Source: Candidatus Odinarchaeota archaeon
Lineage (GTDB): Archaea > Asgardarchaeota > Odinarchaeia > Odinarchaeales > Odinarchaeaceae
NCBI GenBank assembly: GCA_038826135.1
Contig: JAWBON010000059.1
Span: 1 to 7,091 of the forward strand
Reading direction: 5' to 3'
Length of the DNA: 7,091 nucleotides
The position numbers and the translations under genes were made by a program. Each line of letters opens with the position of its first letter. Positions within the stretch are counted from its first letter, which is position 1. The notes under the pieces were generated by a model. That model did no database searches and was not told where the DNA came from. It saw nothing but the letters and a program-made list of their open reading frames with translations. Positions 1-7,091 of the stretch are shown here, piece after piece.

Positions 1-1076
1 ACTATGTTCCCTTCAGGTTTAATATATAGTTTAACCTCGTATTGGCCTGCAGAGAGCGTTGGGTTGAAAACAGCTTTAAATATAATATCCTGCGGATTAC
101 TTGTATCGTTTCCTGTCGGTGTGAAATAAGTATAGTTATCGAAGAATACTCTTTTAAGATAACTGTTAGAGGGCTGGCTAACCCAGTACTCGTATCCTTC
201 CGCCATGTAGACGCCGCTGCTATTATAAATCATGTAAATATATACTGGCAGTGTTTGATTTTCAACATCTATACTCTTGAAAATATCTATTTTTAACTCG
301 ATTTTTTCCAAGTTTTTATCTGACAATATGTGCAGCCAGACTTCTTCACCCCAGCGGATCATATGTTCCGGTATTAGCTGCCCGCTGGGTGTTCTGATTT
401 CAAAGTCTACGTTGGCGATTTCCCCTATTATATAAGTAGTGTACTGCTGTCCTTGTAAAAGCGAGTAACCGGCTGATTCATAGCCGACATTATCTGTATC
501 ATAGACTTCCCACCGAATTTGGTATCGAGCGGATATTGTCGAAGAGTTAAACACTCCTCTGAAAGTTATATAATAGTTTTCGTCAGTTGACTCTATTCTA
601 GACTCGTCTTGGTCGAGTTCAAAGAACGGGGATAGATCCAGCCCGCCCTGGTATTCGAATGTAGCGTACTTCCAGCTTTTAGCTGTAAAGCCTTTCTGTG
701 AATCGTATGATAATTCAAGCTGGGCTGTTATATAATCAATCCATCCAGAGAATACAATACATGCTGTACCGATTGTTCCTGATCTTATCCCTGCTTTAGG
801 TACTATAATAGTTATATTAACCGGTTCATTTAATGATATGACTCCTGTTCCATCATCTGGCAGCGGTGAACCCTCTGAAAGAGTTATTTGTACTTTAGGT
901 AAAGGACCGAAAATAAAATTCGCTTCATACCAAGTTCTGTTAAACGAGTCAGAGCTGGTTTTATCATTCCATTTGACTTGAAGATACTCATTTTCCTGGG
1001 CGGATACGGCTGAAACGGATATGAATGTGAACGATACTAGAATTATTAGTATAGCTAGTGCTAACGGTTTCTTCAT
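1..1076 (-). CDS. Secreted/cell-surface beta-rich glycoprotein (S-layer-like or surface protein), partial; C-terminus lies beyond the left edge
   Basis: My translation gives an open frame of 358 codons from ATG at 1076 to the window edge with no stop: MKKPLALAILIILVSFTFISVSAVSAQENEYLQVKWNDKTSSDSFNRTWYEANFIFGPLP...GQYEVKLYIKPEGNI. Sec signal peptide (KK, hydrophobic core, VSA|Q). SD GGTGA (1086-1082) 5 nt upstream. Seven N-x-S/T sequons (NRT, NIT, NSS, NQT, NSS, NYT, NDT). Absent from the ORF track because it has no stop in the window. Confidence 0.88.
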   Translation of the reverse strand, partial: MKKPLALAILIILVSFTFISVSAVSAQENEYLQVKWNDKTSSDSFNRTWYEANFIFGPLPKVQITLSEGSPLPDDGTGVISLNEPVNITIIVPKAGIRSGTIGTACIVFSGWIDYITAQLELSYDSQKGFTAKSWKYATFEYQGGLDLSPFFELDQDESRIESTDENYYITFRGVFNSSTISARYQIRWEVYDTDNVGYESAGYSLLQGQQYTTYIIGEIANVDFEIRTPSGQLIPEHMIRWGEEVWLHILSDKNLEKIELKIDIFKSIDVENQTLPVYIYMIYNSSGVYMAEGYEYWVSQPSNSYLKRVFFDNYTYFTPTGNDTSNPQDIIFKAVFNPTLSAGQYEVKLYIKPEGNI

Positions 1077-1140
1077 TCAATTCACCATTTATTATGTAAT
1101 ACAACAACAAAAAAATTACTATTAAATATTAAAAATGCAA

Positions 1141-1155
1141 ATATAAATTTTACTC
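1141..1155 (-). promoter_or_regulatory. Candidate BRE-TATA promoter for the surface-protein gene
   Basis: Minus strand reads GAGTAAAA-TTTATAT (purine-rich BRE-like segment plus TATA-like box) about 65 nt upstream of ATG 1076. The AT-rich context makes chance matches likely. Confidence 0.3.
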
Positions 1156-1166
1156 TAAAATTAAAA

Positions 1167-1679
1167 TTATGTGAACATGCCGTATAAGTGAGCTAAACTC
1201 TTATACTTCAAACGGGCTAGTTCATCATCCAGCTTTTGTTGGAGAATCCGCTGCTTGTATGATAAATCCTCTAGTTTTCTGGGTGTTAATATTACCGGTC
1301 CGTGTATGATGTAATCTTCATCGAGGCGTTCTAAAGATAGAGGGGGGATACTCATCATTATTTTAGCTGTTTTTAAAGCTTTTGCAACGGGATCCTGTAT
1401 TTCAAGTATTTCCAGCGCTGTTCTTTCAGGTATCGGTCTTAACCCGAAGCTTAAATAGTTAGGGTGCTCTAACACAGAGCTGTCCTTTGTCCGCCCACCG
1501 ACACCTATAGTCTTGTAAGGGTTAATCATGTATTCTTTAATCATCCACAGGTTTTGATCGTGTTGGAAAACCCATTGTAAATTATGCTGGGAGTCTTTTG
1601 TAGCCCAGGCTTTCCAGCCTTCAGGGTCCTTATTATATTTTTTAGCTATCTCTTTTTTCACTCGCTCAGCAGTTCTCAT
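1167..1679 (-). CDS. Hypothetical soluble protein (170 aa), probably a conserved archaeal family of unknown function
   Basis: ATG start, TAA stop, no overlap with other real genes, protein-like composition. Motifs DPEGWKAW and NPYKTIGVGGR recall uncharacterised euryarchaeal proteins (from memory, unverified). Confidence 0.8.
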   Translation of the reverse strand: MRTAERVKKEIAKKYNKDPEGWKAWATKDSQHNLQWVFQHDQNLWMIKEYMINPYKTIGVGGRTKDSSVLEHPNYLSFGLRPIPERTALEILEIQDPVAKALKTAKIMMSIPPLSLERLDEDYIIHGPVILTPRKLEDLSYKQRILQQKLDDELARLKYKSLAHLYGMFT

Positions 1680-1813
1680 CTTACCATACCACTGTTTAAA
1701 ATGTTACAAGTAAATTAAAACTGTTTTAAAATTTGAGTTAATATTGATTATTTAATCTGATTAGAAATATTAACCGTATATATTTAACTGTAACGTATTT
1801 TAAGGGAGGGTTC

Positions 1814-1856
1814 GGCCCCCGGGTGGGCGGGAGTTGTTGTTTTTTGACCGGGGGCC
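1814..1856. other. GC-rich inverted repeat (9-bp perfect stem, 25-nt loop) within a G-tract cluster
   Basis: GGCCCCCGG (1814-1822) is the exact reverse complement of CCGGGGGCC (1848-1856). It lies in an otherwise very AT-rich intergenic region. Confidence 0.7.
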
Positions 1857-1934
1857 TAAAACTAGTATTTACAATATGTATTTAATACAAACCAGTATTT
1901 ATATTTTTCGTAGCAGTGCAACATAAATTACTGC

Positions 1935-2774
1935 TTAAAATACTATTAAAATCAATGCGATAACGTTGATGTAATAGCAAATTAGGCCAATCATGGCCGC
2001 GTATGATCTTGCTACTTTCTTGGCATATTGTATACCGCGGGTAAATGTTGAGAGAAACCATATCTGAGTTAGTATTAACCCACTCATTGTAACCGGGTTG
2101 TGAAGCGGGTCCGGAAAAGTTATAAACTGGTTTAGTATGGTGACTATGATTAAAAATATGATAAATGGCGTCATTGACAGCGCGGTGTTTATTATAAGTA
2201 ATCTTAAGTTTTTTGATGTATGCAATGCTATTCTTGAGAAAGCTTCTGTGAAAAGTGTTAATCCAAGCCATGTTATTAGAACTATAACTATTTTTAGTAA
2301 TGGTTCTAATGAAATCATATCTGAATAAAACAAACCGAAGTTAGCCAAGCCGCTCTGGATTGTAAGATAAGATAATAAGCCGATAACTATTAGGGCTTCA
2401 GGTAAAAAACGCAACGGATTCTCGGCAACATATTTATACATCGGGCTGAGACTCACCACATCAAATAATTTACTTGATTTACTCTTAGTTTTGAAACTGG
2501 ATTTAATCACAAAATCGCCGTCATGTATTAGACGGTAGGCGGCTTTACCGAGTGAAGTTAGCCTATATCTTTTCTCTTGGTCCTGTTCCACATATTCTTT
2601 AAGATAATCTATATGATGATACAGTGTTCCCGGTTCAAGATTAACTTCCTTGGATATTTCAGTATACGTGCTTGTGCCAGAGTCCCCTATTAACTGGATT
2701 ATCTTCCTTCGAATTTTATGTGATAGAATTTTATAGATTTTCTCATCTTCACTGCCTTTTTGTTCGCCTGTCAT
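1935..2774 (-). CDS. Membrane-bound transcriptional regulator: N-terminal ArsR-like winged HTH plus about 5 TM helices (possibly Yip1-like)
   Basis: KILSHKIRRKIIQLIG...TYTEISKEVNLEPGTLYHHIDYL...RYRLTSLGKAAY is a typical archaeal ArsR/HTH_20 wHTH. Five hydrophobic segments follow in the C-terminal half. ATG 2774 is preferred over the track's TTG 2783 because AGGT(TG) at 2786-2781 then serves as the SD. Confidence 0.85.
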   Translation of the reverse strand: MTGEQKGSEDEKIYKILSHKIRRKIIQLIGDSGTSTYTEISKEVNLEPGTLYHHIDYLKEYVEQDQEKRYRLTSLGKAAYRLIHDGDFVIKSSFKTKSKSSKLFDVVSLSPMYKYVAENPLRFLPEALIVIGLLSYLTIQSGLANFGLFYSDMISLEPLLKIVIVLITWLGLTLFTEAFSRIALHTSKNLRLLIINTALSMTPFIIFLIIVTILNQFITFPDPLHNPVTMSGLILTQIWFLSTFTRGIQYAKKVARSYAAMIGLICYYINVIALILIVF

Positions 2775-2804
2775 TTCAATCAACCTATAATCCGCATTTA
2801 CAAT

Positions 2805-2812
2805 AAAAAAAA
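2805..2812 (-). terminator. Oligo-T (T8) archaeal-type terminator candidate after the anchored surface-protein gene
   Basis: Minus strand reads TAA-ACTCCCCA-TTTTTTTT directly after the stop at 2820. Confidence 0.45.
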
Positions 2813-2819
2813 TGGGGAG

Positions 2820-3875
2820 TTAAATTTTTCCATTCTTTTTAAGGATTAGCAAACCCCCGACTACGGAGACAGCTATTACTCCTCCCAGTATCATAACCAA
2901 TGTTATGAAGAACGGTACAGTTGTTAATATGTTTTCGGTTACACCTATTGTCGGGTCATGGATTAGTGTTCCATTCCATTTAGGATAGCATAGGTACAGT
3001 TTTATACCTGAATCTGTTGTTGAGTAGGATGATGTCACGTTCAATGGACCGAGGTCATCCTGAGCTACATCAACGAATTTGAAGTACGCTAAGGTTGAGT
3101 TGTCTGTTCCTGTGAAGTTTAGCTGCTCTTGTATTTCAGCTGTGTTAATTATTTTCTGCTCCTCTCCTTGATTTATTATTGTTCCCACATCTACACTGTT
3201 ACCTCCAGGTAAGCCTATTCTGAGCTGTGCTTCAGCACCTGTCTGCCATGTGAGATCAAGCCGTAGAGCTAGCATAGTGGCTGGATCGCTGGTCTGCCAG
3301 TCCCATCCGCTCATTATTATATCTACTTTTACTTCATATAAGCCGTGGACAGTAGTGTTTTCCCCATTAACTGTGATTTGTTGATCTATACTATATATGT
3401 GGACTGTCAAGATCATTGTAAAATCTGATAGATTCAACCCGCCTACTGGTATTTTACTGGAGTCTAAGGTGAAATTGCAGCTTACACCATACTCCTCTTC
3501 AACGAATCCGCTGAAATTCCATTGAGAGGAGGCGAAGGAGAATACAGGGTTTCCTGTAGCGGTTTCATTATATTGGAAAACTTGGTCCCCGTTTTCATCT
3601 ATGAACTCTACTAACTGTATAAATTTAAGATGATATATGGTGTTGTTGTCATCCGGGTTCCAGAAGATAATATGGGGCATGTTATCTGAACCGGTACCAG
3701 ACAAGCCTGTGACTCTGACAGTTATTTTATCTGTTTGAAGTGTAAGCTGGCCGCTCTGGTAACTATAAGATATAGGTGAAGGCTGCGCTAATGTGTTGGC
3801 TATAATGGGGGAGACCGTTAATAACGCCATGATGAGAAATCCTAAAACCATAATATTTCTGGTTGTTTTTTTCAT
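2820..3875 (-). CDS. Type I membrane-anchored surface glycoprotein (signal peptide, beta-rich ectodomain, C-terminal TM helix and short basic tail)
   Basis: MKKTTRNIMVLGFLIMALLTVSPIIANTLA signal peptide. GGTGA (3885-3881) lies 5 nt before ATG 3875, so the start is 3875 rather than the track's 3887. Ten N-x-S/T sequons. C-terminal FFITLVMILGGVIAVSVVGGLLIL-KKNGKI anchor. Confidence 0.9.
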   Translation of the reverse strand: MKKTTRNIMVLGFLIMALLTVSPIIANTLAQPSPISYSYQSGQLTLQTDKITVRVTGLSGTGSDNMPHIIFWNPDDNNTIYHLKFIQLVEFIDENGDQVFQYNETATGNPVFSFASSQWNFSGFVEEEYGVSCNFTLDSSKIPVGGLNLSDFTMILTVHIYSIDQQITVNGENTTVHGLYEVKVDIIMSGWDWQTSDPATMLALRLDLTWQTGAEAQLRIGLPGGNSVDVGTIINQGEEQKIINTAEIQEQLNFTGTDNSTLAYFKFVDVAQDDLGPLNVTSSYSTTDSGIKLYLCYPKWNGTLIHDPTIGVTENILTTVPFFITLVMILGGVIAVSVVGGLLILKKNGKI

Positions 3876-3917
3876 TTTGATCACCATATTTATTTTTACG
3901 ATTATTTTAATAATTAA

Positions 3918-3935
3918 GACTATTTATAAATGTTC
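3918..3935. promoter_or_regulatory. TATA box (TTTATAAA 3923-3930) embedded in an 18-bp imperfect palindrome; candidate promoter/operator
   Basis: GActATTTATAAATgtTC: a 10-bp perfect palindromic core plus outer GA/TC pairs, about 45-55 nt upstream of ATG 3875. A second TATTTATA copy occurs at 3943-3950. Confidence 0.45.
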
Positions 3936-4264
3936 AGTTCGATATTTATAGAAATCCAACTTCGAGAAAAACCGAACTAAGTAAAAAAGGAGTCAACTAA
4001 CAACTTCATATTTCACCAACACTGCAAAACTCACCGAAAAACAATAGTAAAATTATAGCATTTACTATAAACCCCACCTACTCATACTACATCTTAATTC
4101 ATCAGTTAGCTCATCGCTCTCAGAATTTCAACTAATAAGTATTTTTTACATTAATTAAACTAAAATTTGCTTTGAATTAATCCTAATGCAATAAGCTTTA
4201 ACTTAACATGAAATCTATTAATATTATAGGAGCATATGAATAAGAATAAGAAAGGTGAGATTTT

Positions 4265-4558
4265 ATGGGTGGTATAATGGAATTTAAAAAAATAATTTCA
4301 CAGCATAGAAAAGAGTTAGAGAATAGATTTAACGTGGAAAAAATTGGTTTATTCGGCTCTTATGTTAGAGGGGAAGAAAGTGAAGAAAGCGATTTAGATA
4401 TTTTAGTTGAATTTAAAGAACCTATAAGTTTATTTGAATTCATGGAGTTAGAAGAATACTTGGAAGAGATTCTTAAAATTAAAGTTGATGTTGTTTCAAA
4501 AAAAGGTTTAAACCCCTATATCGGGGAGCAAATACTTAATGAGGTAGTTTATGTATGA
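4265..4558 (+). CDS. mntA: Minimal nucleotidyltransferase (MNT) antitoxin, MntA family
   Basis: GLFGSYVRGEESEESDLDILVEF matches the GS-X10-DXD catalytic motif; C-terminal KVDVV. SD GGTGA at 4254-4258. Stop overlaps the next start (ATGA, 4555-4558). Confidence 0.93.
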   Translation: MGGIMEFKKIISQHRKELENRFNVEKIGLFGSYVRGEESEESDLDILVEFKEPISLFEFMELEEYLEEILKIKVDVVSKKGLNPYIGEQILNEVVYV

Positions 4559-4905
4559 AAAAACGTGATTACAAAAACTATCTCAAAGATATTATAATGA
4601 ACATAGAAGATATTGAAGGTTTCATAATAAATATGGATATGGAGGAATTTAAAAAAGATAAGAGAACCAGTAATGCGGTTATTAGAAGCTTGGAGGTAAT
4701 AGGGGAGGCGGCTAAGAAAATACCCCAAGAAATAACTAGTCAATATCCTCAAATACCTTGGAATAAAATTACTGGTATGAGAGATAGATTGATACACGAG
4801 TATTTCGGAGTTGACTTGGAAATAGTATGGAAGACTGTGAAATCTGATTTGCCAGCCCTTAAAATCTTGCTAGAGAATTTACTTAAAAATGATCTAAATT
4901 TATAG
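4555..4905 (+). CDS. hepT: HepT-like HEPN ribonuclease toxin (DUF86 family)
   Basis: AVIRSLEVIGEAAKKIP...IPWNKITGMRDRLIHEYFGVDLEIVW, containing the RX4HXY motif (RDRLIHEY, 4780-4803). Coupled to the MNT gene by a 4-nt overlap. Confidence 0.93.
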   Translation: MKKRDYKNYLKDIIMNIEDIEGFIINMDMEEFKKDKRTSNAVIRSLEVIGEAAKKIPQEITSQYPQIPWNKITGMRDRLIHEYFGVDLEIVWKTVKSDLPALKILLENLLKNDLNL

Positions 4906-4928
4906 TTTTTCTTAACGTTATATTTTTT
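4906..4928 (+). terminator. T-rich terminator candidate after hepT
   Basis: TTTTTCTT immediately after the TAG stop, and a T6 run at 4923-4928. Confidence 0.4.
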
Positions 4929-4944
4929 AAATATTGAATTCTGA

Positions 4945-5256
4945 AAAAACAAAAATGGAAAGTTAGGGTTTAATTATTTCAGGCAGTATACAGCTGGAGC
5001 AGCTATTATCACAGCGTCAATCGAAAAACAGTATGCTATAATTCGAAGACTATTAATTACAGGCGGGATTGTTAAAAATCTAAGAGATGAAATAAAAAAT
5101 TTACCCCTAACATTCTATAAAGGTAAATCCGGTATGAGGGATGTACTAGTGCATGAATATTTCGGCATAGATACTGAGCTCATCTTGAATGTGATAACAC
5201 GTGATTTACCGATTTTTAAAGAACATGTTTTAAAACTATATTCTGGTTTTACTTAA
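4945..5256 (+). pseudogene. Degenerate second HepT/DUF86 copy lacking its N-terminus and start codon
   Basis: Frame open from 4945 to TAA 5254-5256: ...EKQYAIIRRLLITGGIVKNLRDEIKNLPLTFYKGKSGMRDVLVHEYFGIDTELILNVITRDLPIFKEHVLKLYSGFT*. It aligns with the upstream HepT (AVIRSLEVIGEAAKKIP...GMRDRLIHEYFGVD). The conserved IGE and IPW motifs are eroded, and there is no in-frame ATG/GTG/TTG before ATG 5134. Confidence 0.78.
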
Positions 5257-5923
5257 TCCAGATCAGGCGGCTGTCATCCATTATATAGAAGCATTTGCAA
5301 CCGTATTCATGAGCTAACCCGTAGAAGGCCATCGCTGTAAACCGGCTGCCACAGGTTACATCAAAAACGATCTCATTTTTACGCAGATATTTCTCCACCT
5401 CCACTCGAACCGCTTCATACACGCCGTCGAAACTGTAGTTAATAATCCGATCCGGTAAAACCATTATTTGAACATCCTCTGTCAAACCTGAAACCTTGCC
5501 CTTCACAGACTCCGTTCCCAGAAACATATAATTTACCGGTTTAACCCTACTGTTATCTAAAAGAACCTGCCGAATCCTTCTAATAACGTAAGGATCCTCC
5601 TCTAAGGCCCCCATATACATCACAGGCGCTTTAATCCCAAGGTAATCCCGAACAGGCTGAACCATTTGAGGAATGATCTCAGCGAACTTATCCTTCCACT
5701 CCCTTCTACGACGGATAAGACCGGCCTCCTCCAGCTGACTGATATTATGATAAAGCCTAGCATCACTAACCTCATCCAATCCAACCCCGAAACTCTTAGC
5801 CAGCGCGTACCTTAACTGTAAACCAGTCTTCTCCCCCTCTAAGAGCTCCTCTAAAAGAACCCGACGGCTCTCAACCCCACCGATAGCCCGCTCTATAACC
5901 TCAACAGCACTCAACGCAAACAC
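5249..5923 (-). CDS. Transcriptional regulator: N-terminal PadR-like winged HTH plus C-terminal CARF-like (Rossmann) domain
   Basis: wHTH: RRVLLEELLEGEKTGLQLRYAL...SDARLYHNISQLEEAGLI. CARF-like: b1 VMYMGAL, b2 KPVNYMFLGT, helix SFDGVYEAVRVEV, signature IVFDVTCGSRFTAMAF (5342-5362; compare the CARF D-[LIV]-T-x-G-x-[KR] motif, Csa3 DLTMGMR), then CFYI. Start is GTG 5923, or TTG 5914 preceded by GGGTG. Confidence 0.82.
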   Translation of the reverse strand: MFALSAVEVIERAIGGVESRRVLLEELLEGEKTGLQLRYALAKSFGVGLDEVSDARLYHNISQLEEAGLIRRRREWKDKFAEIIPQMVQPVRDYLGIKAPVMYMGALEEDPYVIRRIRQVLLDNSRVKPVNYMFLGTESVKGKVSGLTEDVQIMVLPDRIINYSFDGVYEAVRVEVEKYLRKNEIVFDVTCGSRFTAMAFYGLAHEYGCKCFYIMDDSRLIWIK

Positions 5924-5933
5924 CCATTACAAG

Positions 5934-5958
5934 TCAACTACATATACAATATAGTCGA
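5934..5958. promoter_or_regulatory. Imperfect 25-bp palindrome just upstream of the wHTH-CARF gene; candidate autoregulatory operator
   Basis: TCaACTAcATatacaATaTAGTcGA: pairs TC/GA, ACTA/TAGT and AT/AT are symmetric. Confidence 0.35.
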
Positions 5959-5980
5959 TATCACTTATAATATTTATCCA

Positions 5981-5997
5981 AAAAAATCCTTAAATAA
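5981..5997 (+). promoter_or_regulatory. Candidate BRE-TATA promoter for actin
   Basis: AAAAAATCC-TTAAATAA about 100 nt upstream of ATG 6096. Confidence 0.35.
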
Positions 5998-6020
5998 TAA
6001 TTTTTCGCAAATATTATGTA

Positions 6021-6068
6021 GCTAAATTACGAAAAAAATAAATTTAGCCCGCGGAGGTTAAAAACCTC
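6021..6068. promoter_or_regulatory. Two tandem perfect inverted repeats in the actin promoter/leader
   Basis: GCTAAATT-N12-AATTTAGC (6021-6048) and GAGGTT-AAA-AACCTC (6054-6068). Confidence 0.5.
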
Positions 6069-6095
6069 AAATAAAAATAAATAAAGGTGAAAAAA

Positions 6096-7091
6096 ATGGC
6101 GCAAGCACCCAAAACTGAAGTAGAACCCGCGCCGATAGAGGAAATGGTAACCGGCAAACCCGTAGTAGTAGACAACGGAACCGGCCTCACTAAAAACGGC
6201 TACGCAGGCGAAGACAGACCCAGATCCGTATTCCCCACAATCATCGGTTATCCAAAATACACCTCAATCATGACAGACGTAGAACACTACACAAGAGAAT
6301 ACTATATCGGCGAGGAAGCCCTCGAACTCCGAGGCGTATTAAAACTAGTCTACCCTGTCGAACACGGCATAATAAAAAGCTGGCCCGCCATGGAGAAAAT
6401 ATGGCACTACACATTCTACACAGACATGAGAATAGACCCATCCGAACACCCCATCCTATTAACCGAACCACCCATGAACCCCAGAACAAACCGTGAAAAA
6501 ATGGCTGAAATCATGTTCGAAACCTTCAACGCACCCGCCATATACGTAGCCATGCAAGCCGTCCTATCACTATACGCATCCGGCCGAACAACAGGCCTCG
6601 TAATCGACTCCGGAGACGGAGTAACCCACATCGTCCCCATATACGAAGGATTCGCCCTCACACACGCAATCACAAGAGTCGACCTAGGCGGACGCGACAT
6701 AACCGAATACCTAAGAAGACTCCTCAGACAAAGAGGATACACCCTACAATCCAGCGCAGAAAGAGAAATCGTCCGAGACATAAAAGAAAAACTCTGCTAC
6801 GTAGCCCTAGACCCTGAAAAAGAACTCAAACTAGCACAAAAAGTCAGCGAAATGGAAAAAACCTACATGCTACCAGACGGAGCACCCCTAACAATAGGAG
6901 CTGAAAGATTCCTAGCACCAGAAGTCTTCTTCAACCCAGGAGTAATAGGACTCGAAGCCCAACCACTAGACGAAGTAATCGTCCAAACAATCGAAAAATG
7001 CGACGTAGACCTAAGACGAGACCTATACAGCAACATAGTCCTATCCGGCGGCTCAACAATGTTCCCAGGACTAAAAGAAAGACTAACCAAA
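6096..7091 (+). CDS. Asgard (Lokiactin-type) eukaryote-like actin, partial (332 codons; C-terminus beyond the right edge)
   Basis: My translation: [53 protein letters not shown]...[19 protein letters not shown]...[69 protein letters not shown]...[19 protein letters not shown]...LPDG...IGAERF...[24 protein letters not shown]. All actin ATPase motifs are present, with long stretches identical to eukaryotic actin. SD GGTGA (6086-6090) 5 nt upstream. Missed by the ORF track because it has no stop in the window. Confidence 0.98.

What the first reader, a model, noticed from the sequence alone, without database searches (positions are those of the whole stretch)
5249..7091. Extreme strand-specific A/C versus G/T wobble skew spanning two oppositely oriented genes, with a gradient
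By manual count only about 16 of 318 synonymous actin codons end in G or T (about 5%; only 2 in the last ~195 codons). The minus-strand CARF gene shows the mirror image: about 49 of its first 60 codons end in G or T, and the bias fades toward its 3' end near 5250. So the plus strand is A/C-rich at silent sites whichever strand is coding, which ordinary translational codon selection cannot explain. The skew is not evident in genes at 1-3900. This points to a localised, polar mutational or selective process, such as a nearby replication origin, persistent single-strandedness, or strand-biased repair or deamination.
Basis: partly seen in the sequence, partly recalled or inferred. Interest (0 to 1): 0.62.

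Follow-up and report, generated by a model that had tools for sequence, protein, structure and literature searches.

The report
Strand-bound mutation tract across actin locus
In this hot-spring Asgard archaeon, one DNA strand has been almost stripped of G and T at freely changeable sites for about 1.8 kb, across the actin gene and its oppositely oriented neighbour. This is one of dozens of short, one-directional mutation tracts in the genome, not a codon preference and not the mark of a nearby replication origin.

Summary
Only 16 of 318 synonymous actin codons end in G/T, and 49 of the first 60 codons of the minus-strand neighbour do. Plus-strand A/C at silent sites rises steadily from 0.46 at position 5250 to about 1.0 near 7091.

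Actin ranks 1st and the neighbour 8th-lowest of 1,199 genes. The same pattern occurs genome-wide and in a closed genome of the same genus:
- Silent-site composition follows the physical strand in domains of about 1-10 kb (opposite-strand neighbours, rho 0.35).
- It also shifts intergenic DNA and codon positions 1 and 2.
- Ferritin and thioredoxin show the mirror extreme, about 95% G/T.
- Sharp edges lie at gene junctions, with the G/T-rich strand running 5'->3' away from the edge.

EF-1α, EF-2, thermosome and ribosomal-protein genes are unbiased, so expression-linked codon choice fails. The nearest orc1/cdc6 gene is 31 kb away and the replichore-scale trend is weak, so a nearby origin fails.

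My best reading is recurrent exposure, or error-prone resynthesis, of one strand in polar tracts that start at gene boundaries. The motor is unresolved: transcription with R-loops, or local DNA synthesis.

A second Asgard genus shows a stronger version, and a control genome shows none. Earlier notes of this scan report similar patches on other archaeal and phage DNA.

The parts
5249..7091 (.). The skew tract as a whole. The minus strand is G/T-rich and the plus strand A/C-rich. The skew is strongest at the right end of the window and decays leftwards over at least 1.8 kb, across two divergently oriented genes and their shared promoter region.
   Evidence: Codon counts and gradient. It contains the most extreme 1-kb keto skew in the genome. 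It is single-copy in the genome.
6096..7091 (+). Actin gene (Asgard actin), cut off by the contig end about 55 codons before its stop. 95% of its synonymous codons end in A/C.
   Evidence: Pfam PF00022, E = 2.6e-106. M3 0.909, rank 1 of 1,199. Orthologues 99-100% identical in protein but only 88% in DNA.
5924..6095 (.). Divergent intergenic region between the two genes. It is A-rich and skewed in the same direction, but less strongly.
   Evidence: Counted over 5924-6098: plus-strand A/C 0.62 (A 84, C 25, G 17, T 49).
5249..5923 (-). 224-aa regulator-like gene with an N-terminal winged helix and a C-terminal Rossmann-like part. 71% of its codons end in G/T, fading from 82% at the 5' end to 46% at the 3' end.
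   Evidence: Weak PadR/HTH_20 hits below the Pfam cut-off. The nearest named Atlas clusters carry HFX_2341_N or Csa3_N at score 0.75-0.77, which is a lead only. Counts. The orthologue in the closed genome has only M3 0.43.
4945..5256 (+). Start-less HepT-like open frame (103 codons, stop to stop). It converges on the regulator gene and overlaps its stop by 8 bases. It is unskewed and marks the left limit of the tract.
   Evidence: Frame listing. The C-terminal residues resemble the HepT gene at 4555-4905. Intergenic A/C 0.50.
4265..4905 (+). MNT nucleotidyltransferase plus HepT toxin-antitoxin pair. It is unskewed and absent from this position in the closed relative, so it is probably a recent insertion.
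   Evidence: PF01909 E = 4.7e-19 and PF01934 E = 6.8e-32. A/C3 0.52 and 0.50. In the relative, the regulator gene lies close to the orthologue of window ~3523-4138.
6..3887 (-). Four minus-strand genes (secreted or membrane proteins and a winged-helix membrane protein) with a mild skew of the opposite sign.
   Evidence: Plus-strand A/C3 of 0.42, 0.41, 0.42 and 0.36. Pfam results.
6268..7090 (-). Three antisense open frames inside actin (6268-6489, 6416-6781, 6863-7090). They are by-products of the bias, not genes.
   Evidence: They lie in the antisense frame whose third positions coincide with actin's third positions. When those are A/C, only TAG can stop that frame (reasoning from the sequence).

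Best explanation
The window holds one polar tract of a strand-bound mutational process.

Shown:
- The tract starts sharply just beyond the contig end, near the 3' end of actin, and runs leftwards. Along it, the strand that reads 5'->3' away from the start (here the minus strand) is enriched in G and T. This is what an excess of C->T and A->G on that strand would give.
- The enrichment decays over about 2 kb. It passes through actin, which is read antisense to that strand and so ends up with A/C-ending codons. It continues through the promoter region and into the neighbouring gene, which is read in sense and so ends up with G/T-ending codons.
- The same process acts at many gene junctions in this genus, and more strongly in a second Asgard genus.

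Inferred: the G/T-rich strand is repeatedly displaced and left single-stranded. A motor that starts in AT-rich intergenic DNA and tracks the other strand 3'->5' would do this. The most likely motor is RNA polymerase making untranslated, divergent or antisense transcripts with R-loops. In hot water the exposed C and A deaminate. An R-loop feedback, in which a G-richer displaced strand favours more R-loops, could explain why some tracts run to about 95% saturation while most genes stay unbiased.
For: 1. The bias follows the strand, not the gene.
- M3 of neighbouring genes correlates positively on the same strand (+0.51) and negatively on opposite strands (-0.41 convergent, -0.37 divergent) in this genome.
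- In the closed relative, the plus-strand silent-site composition of neighbours correlates at rho 0.54 (same strand) and 0.35 (opposite strand, p = 3e-16). This decays by 8-12 genes and is unchanged after removing the 60-kb trend.

2. The cause is mutational, not codon-level.
- M3 correlates with positions 1 and 2 (r = 0.43 and 0.24).
- Intergenic DNA shares the skew (rho 0.40-0.50, p <= 5e-14).
- A thioredoxin gene and the adjacent winged-helix gene are almost entirely G/T at all positions; the winged-helix protein is dominated by Gly, Val, Leu, Arg and Trp.
- The implied rate multipliers on the G/T-rich strand are the same in both island types: C->T 1.6-4.4 and A->G 2.1-6.3.

3. The tracts are polar.
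- Sharp rises in plus-strand G+T outnumber sharp falls: 20:7 in the closed genome and 49:22 in the second genus.
- 45 of 49 rises lie at gene junctions, of all three junction types. Falls are mostly inside genes.
- Flanks decay over about 1-2.5 kb.

4. There is a metagene gradient. Coding-strand G/T3 in the first 60 versus the last 60 codons is 0.539 vs 0.400 (p = 5e-21) in the second genus. It is 0.511 vs 0.489 (p = 7e-9) in this genome.

5. There are links to transcription starts.
- On the tRNA-sense strand, G+T is 0.472 upstream and 0.513 downstream (paired p = 0.0009, n = 34). The extreme A/C 3' end of ValRS abuts a tRNA-Ala start.
- Two tracts abut CRISPR arrays.
- Ferritin and thioredoxin share an 85-nt upstream element at 98.8% identity in the closed genome.

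6. In the closed relative the actin skew stops about 120 nt before the stop codon. In the second genus it flips sign at the same codon. So it is not a property of the whole mRNA.

7. The skew is persistent and lineage-specific. Orthologue M3 correlates at r = 0.71 (n = 1,084) between two species with 78% median protein identity. Ferritin has M3 0.03-0.06 in all four genomes of the genus and 0.48-0.65 elsewhere. A control Asgard genome has sd 0.058 and opposite-strand rho 0.09, not significant.
Against: - Classic highly transcribed genes (EF-1α, thermosome, ribosomal proteins) show no G/T enrichment of the coding strand. The rRNA operon flanks are only mildly skewed. Promoter strength alone therefore does not predict a tract.
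- Rises occur at convergent junctions, with gaps of 6-28 nt, as often as expected by chance. No promoter is expected there.
- No RNA gene or tRNA was found downstream of actin that could drive antisense transcription.
- No transcript data exist, so the antisense RNA through actin is purely inferred.
- The polarity fits other processes equally well: lagging-template exposure at a fork moving away from the edge, or G·T-mispair errors in a strand resynthesised 5'->3' from the edge.
- A->G is at least as strong as C->T, whereas hydrolytic deamination favours C (Xia 2012, PMC3269012).
- In this fragmented genome the count of rises versus falls is 7:7.
Confidence: 0.45

Rival explanations
1. Local DNA synthesis rather than transcription. 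Tracts mark places where DNA synthesis repeatedly starts at AT-rich gene junctions: origin-like firing, recombination-dependent restart, or gap filling after a break. Either the lagging-strand template is exposed, or the strand resynthesised 5'->3' from the edge picks up G·T-mispair errors.
For: The geometry is the same as observed: the G/T-rich strand has its 5' end at the edge, and some tracts have two arms. Edges lie at all junction types, including convergent ones with no room for a promoter. Tract length of 1-2.5 kb resembles resection or repair tracts. Tracts cluster at 1.2-1.4 Mb, around the maximum of cumulative keto skew. Highly expressed genes are unaffected. Polak et al. 2010 (PMC2927911) could not separate antisense transcription from bidirectional origins for the mammalian analogue either.
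Against: The genome has only three orc1/cdc6 genes. Deamination of the 3' tails left by 5'->3' resection would give the opposite polarity (reasoning). The tRNA-anchored and CRISPR-adjacent signals point to transcription starts. There is no direct evidence of breaks or initiation.
Confidence: 0.25
2. One reading: a classical replication origin or replichore boundary lies next to the locus, and the skew is ordinary leading/lagging-strand asymmetry.
For: A weak chromosome-scale amino/keto trend exists in the closed genome. It has turning regions near 520 kb and 1,290 kb, and actin lies at 534.5 kb.
Against: The nearest orc1/cdc6 gene is 31 kb away. The regional trend has sd 0.022 against a local sd of 0.079, and removing it leaves the neighbour correlations unchanged. 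The skew collapses within 0.3-2 kb on either side. There are dozens of similar tracts of both signs.
Confidence: 0.04
3. Gene-specific codon selection. Actin is selected for A/C-ending codons, which are read by Watson-Crick pairing. Ferritin-type genes are selected for G/T-ending codons, for example for stress-dependent translation.
For: Actin is A/C-rich in two separate genera and ferritin is G/T-rich in all four species of the genus. M3 of orthologues is conserved (r = 0.71).
Against: EF-1α, EF-2, thermosome and ribosomal-protein genes are unbiased. The last ~40 actin codons are unbiased or reversed. Intergenic DNA and positions 1 and 2 share the skew. Opposite-strand neighbours show the mirror image. 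The multipliers are mirror-symmetric in both island types.
Confidence: 0.05
4. GRINS-type recoding linked to gene conversion between repeats (Nivina et al. 2021).
For: The sequence signature is the same. GC and TA skews are intense, correlated and abruptly changing. They are strongest at third positions. Gly/Val/Cys/Trp are enriched on one strand and Pro/Thr/His/Gln on the other.
Against: The skewed 1.8 kb is single-copy in the genome and the window has no internal repeats. Actin and ferritin are single-copy conserved genes.
Confidence: 0.08
5. Artefact: genes called on the wrong strand, or an assembly error.
For: A/C-rich genes do generate long antisense open frames.
Against: All ten G/T-extreme genes tested have strong Pfam matches (E = 1.4e-15 or better) in the called frame, and most of the ten A/C-extreme genes tested do too. 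The same pattern appears in four independent assemblies, one of them closed.
Confidence: 0.01

Closest known systems
Strand asymmetry of vertebrate mitochondrial DNA (deamination of the displaced heavy strand during strand-displacement replication; reviewed by Xia 2012, PMC3269012)
   Same: One strand gains G+T through C->T and A->G while the complement becomes A/C-rich. Genes on the two strands have mirror-image third positions. There is a positional gradient tied to time spent single-stranded. The strength is comparable, with near-loss of G and T at silent sites.
   Different: Here the tracts are 1-3 kb long and number in the dozens. They have both signs within one 1.4-Mb chromosome, start at gene junctions, and leave most genes untouched. 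No strand-displacement replication is known for this organism.
Transcription-associated mutational asymmetry at mammalian gene starts (Polak, Querfurth and Arndt 2010, PMC2927911)
   Same: The non-template strand shows an excess of A->G and C->T. There is a local component confined to the first 1-2 kb. The sign reverses upstream of the start. The same unresolved choice arises between antisense transcription and bidirectional origins.
   Different: The mammalian effect is a few percent. Here it reaches about 95% of silent sites and alters proteins. Half of the extreme genes have the reverse sign relative to their own transcription, and the best-known highly expressed genes are unaffected.
[quoted passage not shown] 2021, PMC8256042)
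   Same: Intense, correlated GC and TA skews that change abruptly, are strongest at third positions and distort amino-acid usage. The mechanism is unknown.
   Different: GRINS are defined as duplicated regions over 500 bp with over 80% identity to another region, and are linked to gene conversion. The tract here is single-copy, lies in an archaeon, and is polar with edges at gene junctions.
Replication-associated GC/keto skew of bacterial and archaeal chromosomes
   Same: Same direction of chemistry (one strand G/T-rich). A weak chromosome-scale version exists in the closed relative.
   Different: The scale is kb rather than replichore, the strength is several-fold greater, there are many sign changes, and there is no link to orc1/cdc6.

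Membership tests
Replication-origin / replichore strand asymmetry | The skew changes sign at an origin or terminus and keeps one sign over a replichore. | tested here: not met
   Local domains decay within 8-12 genes. The regional trend has sd 0.022 against 0.079, and there are dozens of sign changes.
Replication-origin / replichore strand asymmetry | An initiator gene (orc1/cdc6) or origin lies next to the switch. | tested here: not met
   In the closed relative, the Cdc6_C matches lie at 503, 606 and 625 kb and actin at 534.5 kb. ORB boxes were not searched.
Expression-linked translational codon bias | Highly expressed genes share the preferred codon set. | tested here: not met
   EF-1α 0.47, EF-2 0.53, thermosome 0.56 and 0.53, ribosomal proteins 0.48-0.55, against actin 0.80-0.91 and ferritin 0.05.
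Expression-linked translational codon bias | The bias is confined to synonymous coding sites and is uniform along the mRNA. | tested here: not met
   Intergenic DNA and positions 1 and 2 shift as well. The last ~40 actin codons are unbiased or reversed in relatives.
Transcription-associated mutational asymmetry | The non-template (coding) strand is enriched in G+T downstream of the start, decaying within 1-2 kb. | tested here: inconclusive
   Met for ferritin, thioredoxin and FKBP-type genes and downstream of tRNAs. Actin and other A/C-type genes have the reverse sign unless an unseen antisense transcript exists.
Transcription-associated mutational asymmetry | The sign reverses upstream of the start. 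| tested here: met
   tRNA-anchored profile 0.472 upstream versus 0.513 downstream, p = 0.0009. The rises are two-armed.
Transcription-associated mutational asymmetry | Strength scales with transcription level. | tested here: not met
   Using gene identity as a proxy only: EF-1α, thermosome and ribosomal proteins are unskewed and the rRNA flanks are mild. No expression data were available.
Mitochondrial-type displaced-strand deamination | Both C->T and A->G accumulate on the same strand, with a positional gradient. | tested here: met
   Composition-derived multipliers of 1.6-4.4 and 2.1-6.3 on the G/T-rich strand in both island types. Monotonic gradient in the window. This rests on composition, not on observed mutations.
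Mitochondrial-type displaced-strand deamination | A strand is physically displaced and single-stranded for long periods. | not testable with these tools
   This needs ssDNA, R-loop or replication-intermediate mapping.
GRINS (Nivina et al. 2021) | Mean absolute GC and TA skews above 0.15, and correlated. | tested here: met
   Window 5601-7000: GC skew -0.09 to -0.44 together with AT skew +0.17 to +0.46.
GRINS (Nivina et al. 2021) | A region over 500 bp with over 80% identity to another region (a repeat). | tested here: not met
   The only match in the genome is the region itself. The window has no repeats.

The most novel reading that the evidence does not exclude
In at least two Asgard lineages, essentially every intergenic region is a two-way start site for a process that unwinds DNA outwards. 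That process could be pervasive divergent transcription with R-loops, or origin-independent DNA synthesis. The kb-scale amino/keto sawtooth at silent sites would then be a fossil map of those starts. The map would be strong enough to rewrite protein composition and could be read from sequence alone in uncultured relatives of eukaryotes.
Probability: 0.3. Interest if true: 0.85.

Novelty: new variant of a known kind. Interest (0 to 1): 0.66.

Why it matters
If the tracts record where a polymerase repeatedly starts, they give a map of transcription or DNA-synthesis initiation in Asgard archaea that cannot yet be grown easily. Bidirectional initiation from gene-free regions is a eukaryote-like trait, so this bears on eukaryote origins.

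There are also practical consequences:
- Silent sites in these genomes are far from neutral equilibrium and differ by strand and by place. This distorts codon-usage indices, dS estimates, HGT detection, binning by composition, and phylogenies built on affected proteins.
- The bias creates long spurious antisense open frames.
- It may cause contig breaks.
- It shows that mutation pressure can drive a functional protein to a Gly/Val/Leu/Arg/Trp-dominated composition.

Tried and rejected
- **Wrong-strand gene calls.** Rejected: all ten G/T-extreme genes and most of the ten A/C-extreme genes tested have strong Pfam matches in the called frame.
- **cDNA or reverse-transcriptase route** (deaminated first-strand cDNA converting the gene). 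PF00078 was not found in either skewed genus.
- **Loss of uracil-DNA glycosylase as the common cause.** PF03167 was not found in the four genomes of this genus, including the closed one, but it is present in the second skewed genus. Endonuclease V is present in both.
- **Hyperthermophily marker.** Reverse gyrase was found in the second genus and in several unskewed genomes. It was not found in this genus at E <= 1e-50. There is no simple correlation.
- **A hidden RNA gene downstream of actin driving antisense transcription.** No Rfam or tRNA hit in the window or in the relative's locus.
- **tRNA-type mini-intron sites as general tract starts.** In the closed relative, the actin tract ends at such an insert. 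The kae1 and gcvPA intron sites there show no amino/keto skew or jump.
- **Edge-steepness test on 114 weak islands.** Not significant. I replaced it with the count of rises versus falls.
- **Junction type of the rises.** It matches the background, with no enrichment for promoter-bearing junctions.
- **rRNA operon flanks.** Only mild skew.
- **GRINS membership.** The repeat criterion is not met.
- **Shared ferritin/thioredoxin upstream element.** It is present as 85 nt only in the closed relative; this genome keeps a 23-nt match.
- **Literature.** Searches for Asgard or archaeal reports of such local skew found none in the held library.
Full report
**What is in the window.** The window is a whole 7,091-bp contig (C59) of a 1.26-Mb, 105-contig genome.
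- Earlier notes of this scan call the organism an Odinarchaeia (Asgard) archaeon from a hot spring. I did not test that name. The actin gene and the 30 related genomes are consistent with an Asgard archaeon.
- Gene content: four minus-strand genes at 6-3887; an MNT/HepT toxin-antitoxin pair at 4265-4905; a start-less HepT-like frame at 4945-5256; a 224-aa winged-helix regulator on the minus strand at 5249-5923; and actin on the plus strand from 6096 to the contig end.
Pfam gives sub-threshold PadR and HTH hits, and the Atlas gives Csa3_N or HFX_2341_N clusters at scores of 0.75-0.77.

- 16 of 318 synonymous actin codons end in G/T, two of them in the last 195. 49 of the first 60 codons of the regulator end in G/T, and the fraction fades 0.82, 0.77, 0.67, 0.46 toward its 3' end.
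- On the plus strand, silent-site A/C climbs without a break from 0.46 at 5250 to about 1.0 near 7091. The climb crosses the divergent promoter region, which is itself skewed (A/C 0.62).
- I call the A/C fraction at third positions M3. It is almost purely synonymous, because A<->G and C<->T changes at the third position rarely alter the amino acid.
- Among 1,199 genes called with my own simple caller, M3 has mean 0.50 and sd 0.079, where binomial sampling would give 0.033. Actin is the highest (0.909, z = +5.2) and the regulator the 8th lowest (0.29).
- The 1-kb window 6001-7000 has the most negative keto skew of the genome.
- The genes at 1-3900 carry a mild skew of the opposite sign.

**It is not an annotation or assembly artefact.**
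- A/C-rich genes do create long antisense frames, such as the three inside actin, so I checked both tails. All ten G/T-extreme genes tested have strong Pfam matches (E = 1.4e-15 or better) in the called frame, and most of the ten A/C-extreme genes tested do too.
- On the G/T side these include ferritin (M3 0.058), a CoA-binding protein (0.12), an amino-acid permease, FKBP, NUDIX and CYTH. On the A/C side they include an aconitase-family pair, a class I aminoacyl-tRNA synthetase and a P-type ATPase.
- The pattern recurs in four assemblies of the genus, one of them a closed 1,418,269-bp chromosome that I fetched in full.

**The bias follows the physical strand in local domains.**
- In this genome, M3 of adjacent genes correlates at +0.51 on the same strand, -0.41 for convergent pairs and -0.37 for divergent pairs.
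- In the closed genome, the plus-strand silent-site composition of neighbours correlates at rho 0.54 (same strand) and 0.35 (opposite strand, p = 3e-16). It fades by 8-12 genes and is unchanged after removing a 60-kb trend.
- That chromosome-scale trend exists but is small (sd 0.022). Its turning regions lie near 520 kb and 1,290 kb.
- Forty of the 65 most extreme genes lie at 1.2-1.4 Mb. Gene-by-gene maps there show a sawtooth pattern.

**It acts on DNA, not on codons.**
- M3 correlates with the A/C content of positions 1 and 2 (r = 0.43 and 0.24).
- Intergenic DNA shares the skew of its flanks (rho 0.40-0.50).
- In the closed genome a thioredoxin gene and the next winged-helix gene are nearly pure G/T at all positions. 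The winged-helix protein is dominated by Gly, Val, Leu, Arg and Trp.
- I compared equilibrium odds at third positions with unbiased genes. The implied multipliers on the G/T-rich strand are 1.6-4.4 for C->T and 2.1-6.3 for A->G. They are the same whether that strand is the coding or the template strand.
- Codon selection would not produce this mirror symmetry.

EF-1α (0.47), EF-2 (0.53), two thermosome subunits (0.56, 0.53) and the ribosomal-protein cluster (0.48-0.55) are unbiased.

**A nearby origin also fails.** The three orc1/cdc6 genes of the closed genome lie at 503, 606 and 625 kb and actin at 534.5 kb. The skew also collapses within 0.3-2 kb of the locus.

**The tracts are polar.**
- The change in plus-strand G+T across a point keeps the same value when the sequence is reverse-complemented. 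Rises and falls can therefore be compared fairly.
- Sharp rises outnumber sharp falls 20:7 (21:5 with 500-nt windows) in the closed genome. In 393 kb of a second genus the counts are 49:22 and 25:7. In this fragmented genome they are 7:7, and in a control 7:1 on few events.
- So the G/T-rich strand has its 5' end at the sharp edge and the skew decays 5'->3' over about 1-2.5 kb.
- Rises lie at gene junctions: 45 of 49 within 120 nt of a junction, against 36% of the genome. All three junction types occur in background proportions. Falls are mostly inside genes.
- At 5' ends of genes, the tract makes the gene G/T-coding (ferritin, thioredoxin). At 3' ends, it makes the gene A/C-coding (a DUF1616-like gene, ValRS, actin).
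- The metagene profile agrees. Coding-strand G/T3 in the first versus the last 60 codons is 0.539 vs 0.400 (p = 5e-21) in the second genus. It is 0.511 vs 0.489 (p = 7e-9) in this genome and 0.490 vs 0.475 in the closed relative.

**Where the window's tract starts.**
- The contig ends before the edge, and the rest of actin is not in this assembly.
- In the closed relative the A/C bias stops about 120 nt before the actin stop codon. It stops exactly at a frame-shifting, hairpin-forming insert of 31-34 nt that looks like a tRNA-type mini-intron. A sister species lacks the insert.
- In the second genus the skew flips from A/C to G/T at the same codon, without an insert.
- The last ~40 codons of one mRNA thus escape or reverse the bias. 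This again excludes selection on the message.
- The intron is probably a coincidence. The kae1 and gcvPA mini-intron sites show no skew.

**Links to transcription.**
- On the tRNA-sense strand, G+T is 0.472 in the 250 nt upstream and 0.513 downstream (paired p = 0.0009, n = 34). The effect fades by about 1.25 kb.
- The extreme 3' end of ValRS abuts the start of a tRNA-Ala gene. Another tract abuts tRNA-Cys, and two abut CRISPR arrays.
- In the closed genome, ferritin and thioredoxin share an 85-nt upstream element at 98.8% identity.
- Against a simple transcription model: highly expressed protein genes and the rRNA flanks are little affected. Convergent junctions with gaps of 6-28 nt also carry edges. 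No RNA gene lies downstream of actin.

**Distribution and persistence.**
- Actin has M3 0.79-0.91 in this genus and 0.90-0.94 in a second genus. It is 0.43-0.62 in 15 other Asgard genomes, including the sister genus of the same order.
- Ferritin has M3 0.03-0.06 in all four genomes of the genus and 0.48-0.65 elsewhere.
- Orthologue M3 correlates at r = 0.71 across 1,084 pairs at 78% median protein identity. Tracts are also gained or lost: the regulator has 0.29 here and 0.43 in the relative, and a 3-kb tract on contig C11 is absent from the relative.
- Between species, actin differs mostly by A<->C changes at third positions (47 of 90 differences). This is expected if G and T are not tolerated or do not persist there.
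- The second genus is more extreme (sd of M3 0.134, opposite-strand rho 0.50). A closed control genome shows sd 0.058 and rho 0.09, not significant.
- No gene-content correlate emerged. UDG was not found in this genus but is present in the second. Reverse gyrase shows the reverse pattern. Reverse transcriptase was found in neither.

**Interpretation.**
- Shown: a strand-bound, polar, kb-scale pressure of the transition type, seeded at gene junctions, persistent and lineage-specific.
- Inferred: its physical cause. The geometry fits any motor that starts in AT-rich intergenic DNA and tracks one strand 3'->5', displacing the other.
- I favour RNA polymerase making untranslated divergent or antisense transcripts with R-loops. 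In hot water the exposed C and A deaminate, and the growing G-richness of the displaced strand may reinforce R-loop formation.
- DNA synthesis starting at the same sites remains a serious rival.

**Closest described phenomena.**
- Vertebrate mtDNA strand asymmetry (Xia 2012, PMC3269012).
- The asymmetry at mammalian transcription starts, with its reversed upstream arm (Polak et al. 2010, PMC2927911).
- Bacterial GRINS (Nivina et al. 2021, PMC8256042). The repeat criterion for GRINS is not met here.
- I found no paper in the held library describing such tracts in archaea.

**Earlier notes of this scan.** They report similar patches on other contigs of this genome and on other archaeal and phage DNA. 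I treated them as leads only. I took two leads from them: the GRINS paper and the idea that tracts centre on intron or homing sites. I tested both.

**Limits.**
- Gene calls come from a simple caller of my own.
- Mutation directions are inferred from composition, not from observed mutations.
- No expression or replication data were available.

Noticed in passing
L016:2553-2586 (closed relative G002, about 60 nt beyond the homologue of window 7091): The actin gene of the closed relative carries a 31-34-nt hairpin-forming insert between the codons for ...PPERMYS and VWIGGS... that shifts the frame. A sister species (L015) has no insert there. It looks like the tRNA-type mini-introns reported for other genes of this genus. 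The actin skew ends exactly at this point.
   Followed up: partly
window 7091 (contig end); also G003:C3/C8 and G018:C185: Three independent draft assemblies break inside or just after actin. The last ~55 codons of this genome's actin are missing from the whole assembly. The cause may be intron presence/absence, variable toxin-antitoxin cassettes downstream, or the extreme composition.
   Followed up: partly
window 4265-5256: An MNT/HepT toxin-antitoxin pair plus a second, start-less HepT-like frame lie between the regulator gene and its upstream neighbour. In the closed relative this spot is empty, and an MNT/HepT-like pair lies downstream of actin instead. The cassette is therefore mobile around the actin locus.
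   Followed up: partly
G002:C1:1279423-1280772 (L097/L098): A thioredoxin gene and a 319-aa winged-helix gene are built almost entirely of G and T on the coding strand (M3 0.04-0.06; positions 1 and 2 only 24-32% A/C). The second protein is dominated by Gly, Val, Leu, Arg, Trp and Phe.
   Followed up: partly
G002:C1:1279348-1279431 and 1320274-1320358: An 85-nt upstream element is 98.8% identical in front of thioredoxin and ferritin, which are among the most G/T-extreme genes. It is a candidate shared promoter or regulator site, or the result of a recent conversion. This genome keeps only a 23-nt match in front of ferritin (C6:20644-20666).
   Followed up: partly
G000-G003 (whole genomes): No family 4/5 uracil-DNA glycosylase (PF03167) was found in any of the four genomes of the genus, including the closed one. 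It was found in 22 of the 27 other Asgard genomes searched. Endonuclease V is present.
   Followed up: partly
G002:C1:~1349640 and ~1363099: Two CRISPR arrays with the same repeat in opposite orientation flank a ~13-kb block. A G/T-rich tract begins right at the end of each array.
   Followed up: no
G002:C1, cumulative skews: Cumulative amino/keto skew falls from about 1,290 kb, across position 1, to about 520 kb. It is flat to about 1,080 kb and then rises to 1,290 kb. The three orc1/cdc6 genes lie at 503-625 kb. So the start coordinate of this closed genome is not supported as an origin by this measure.
   Followed up: no
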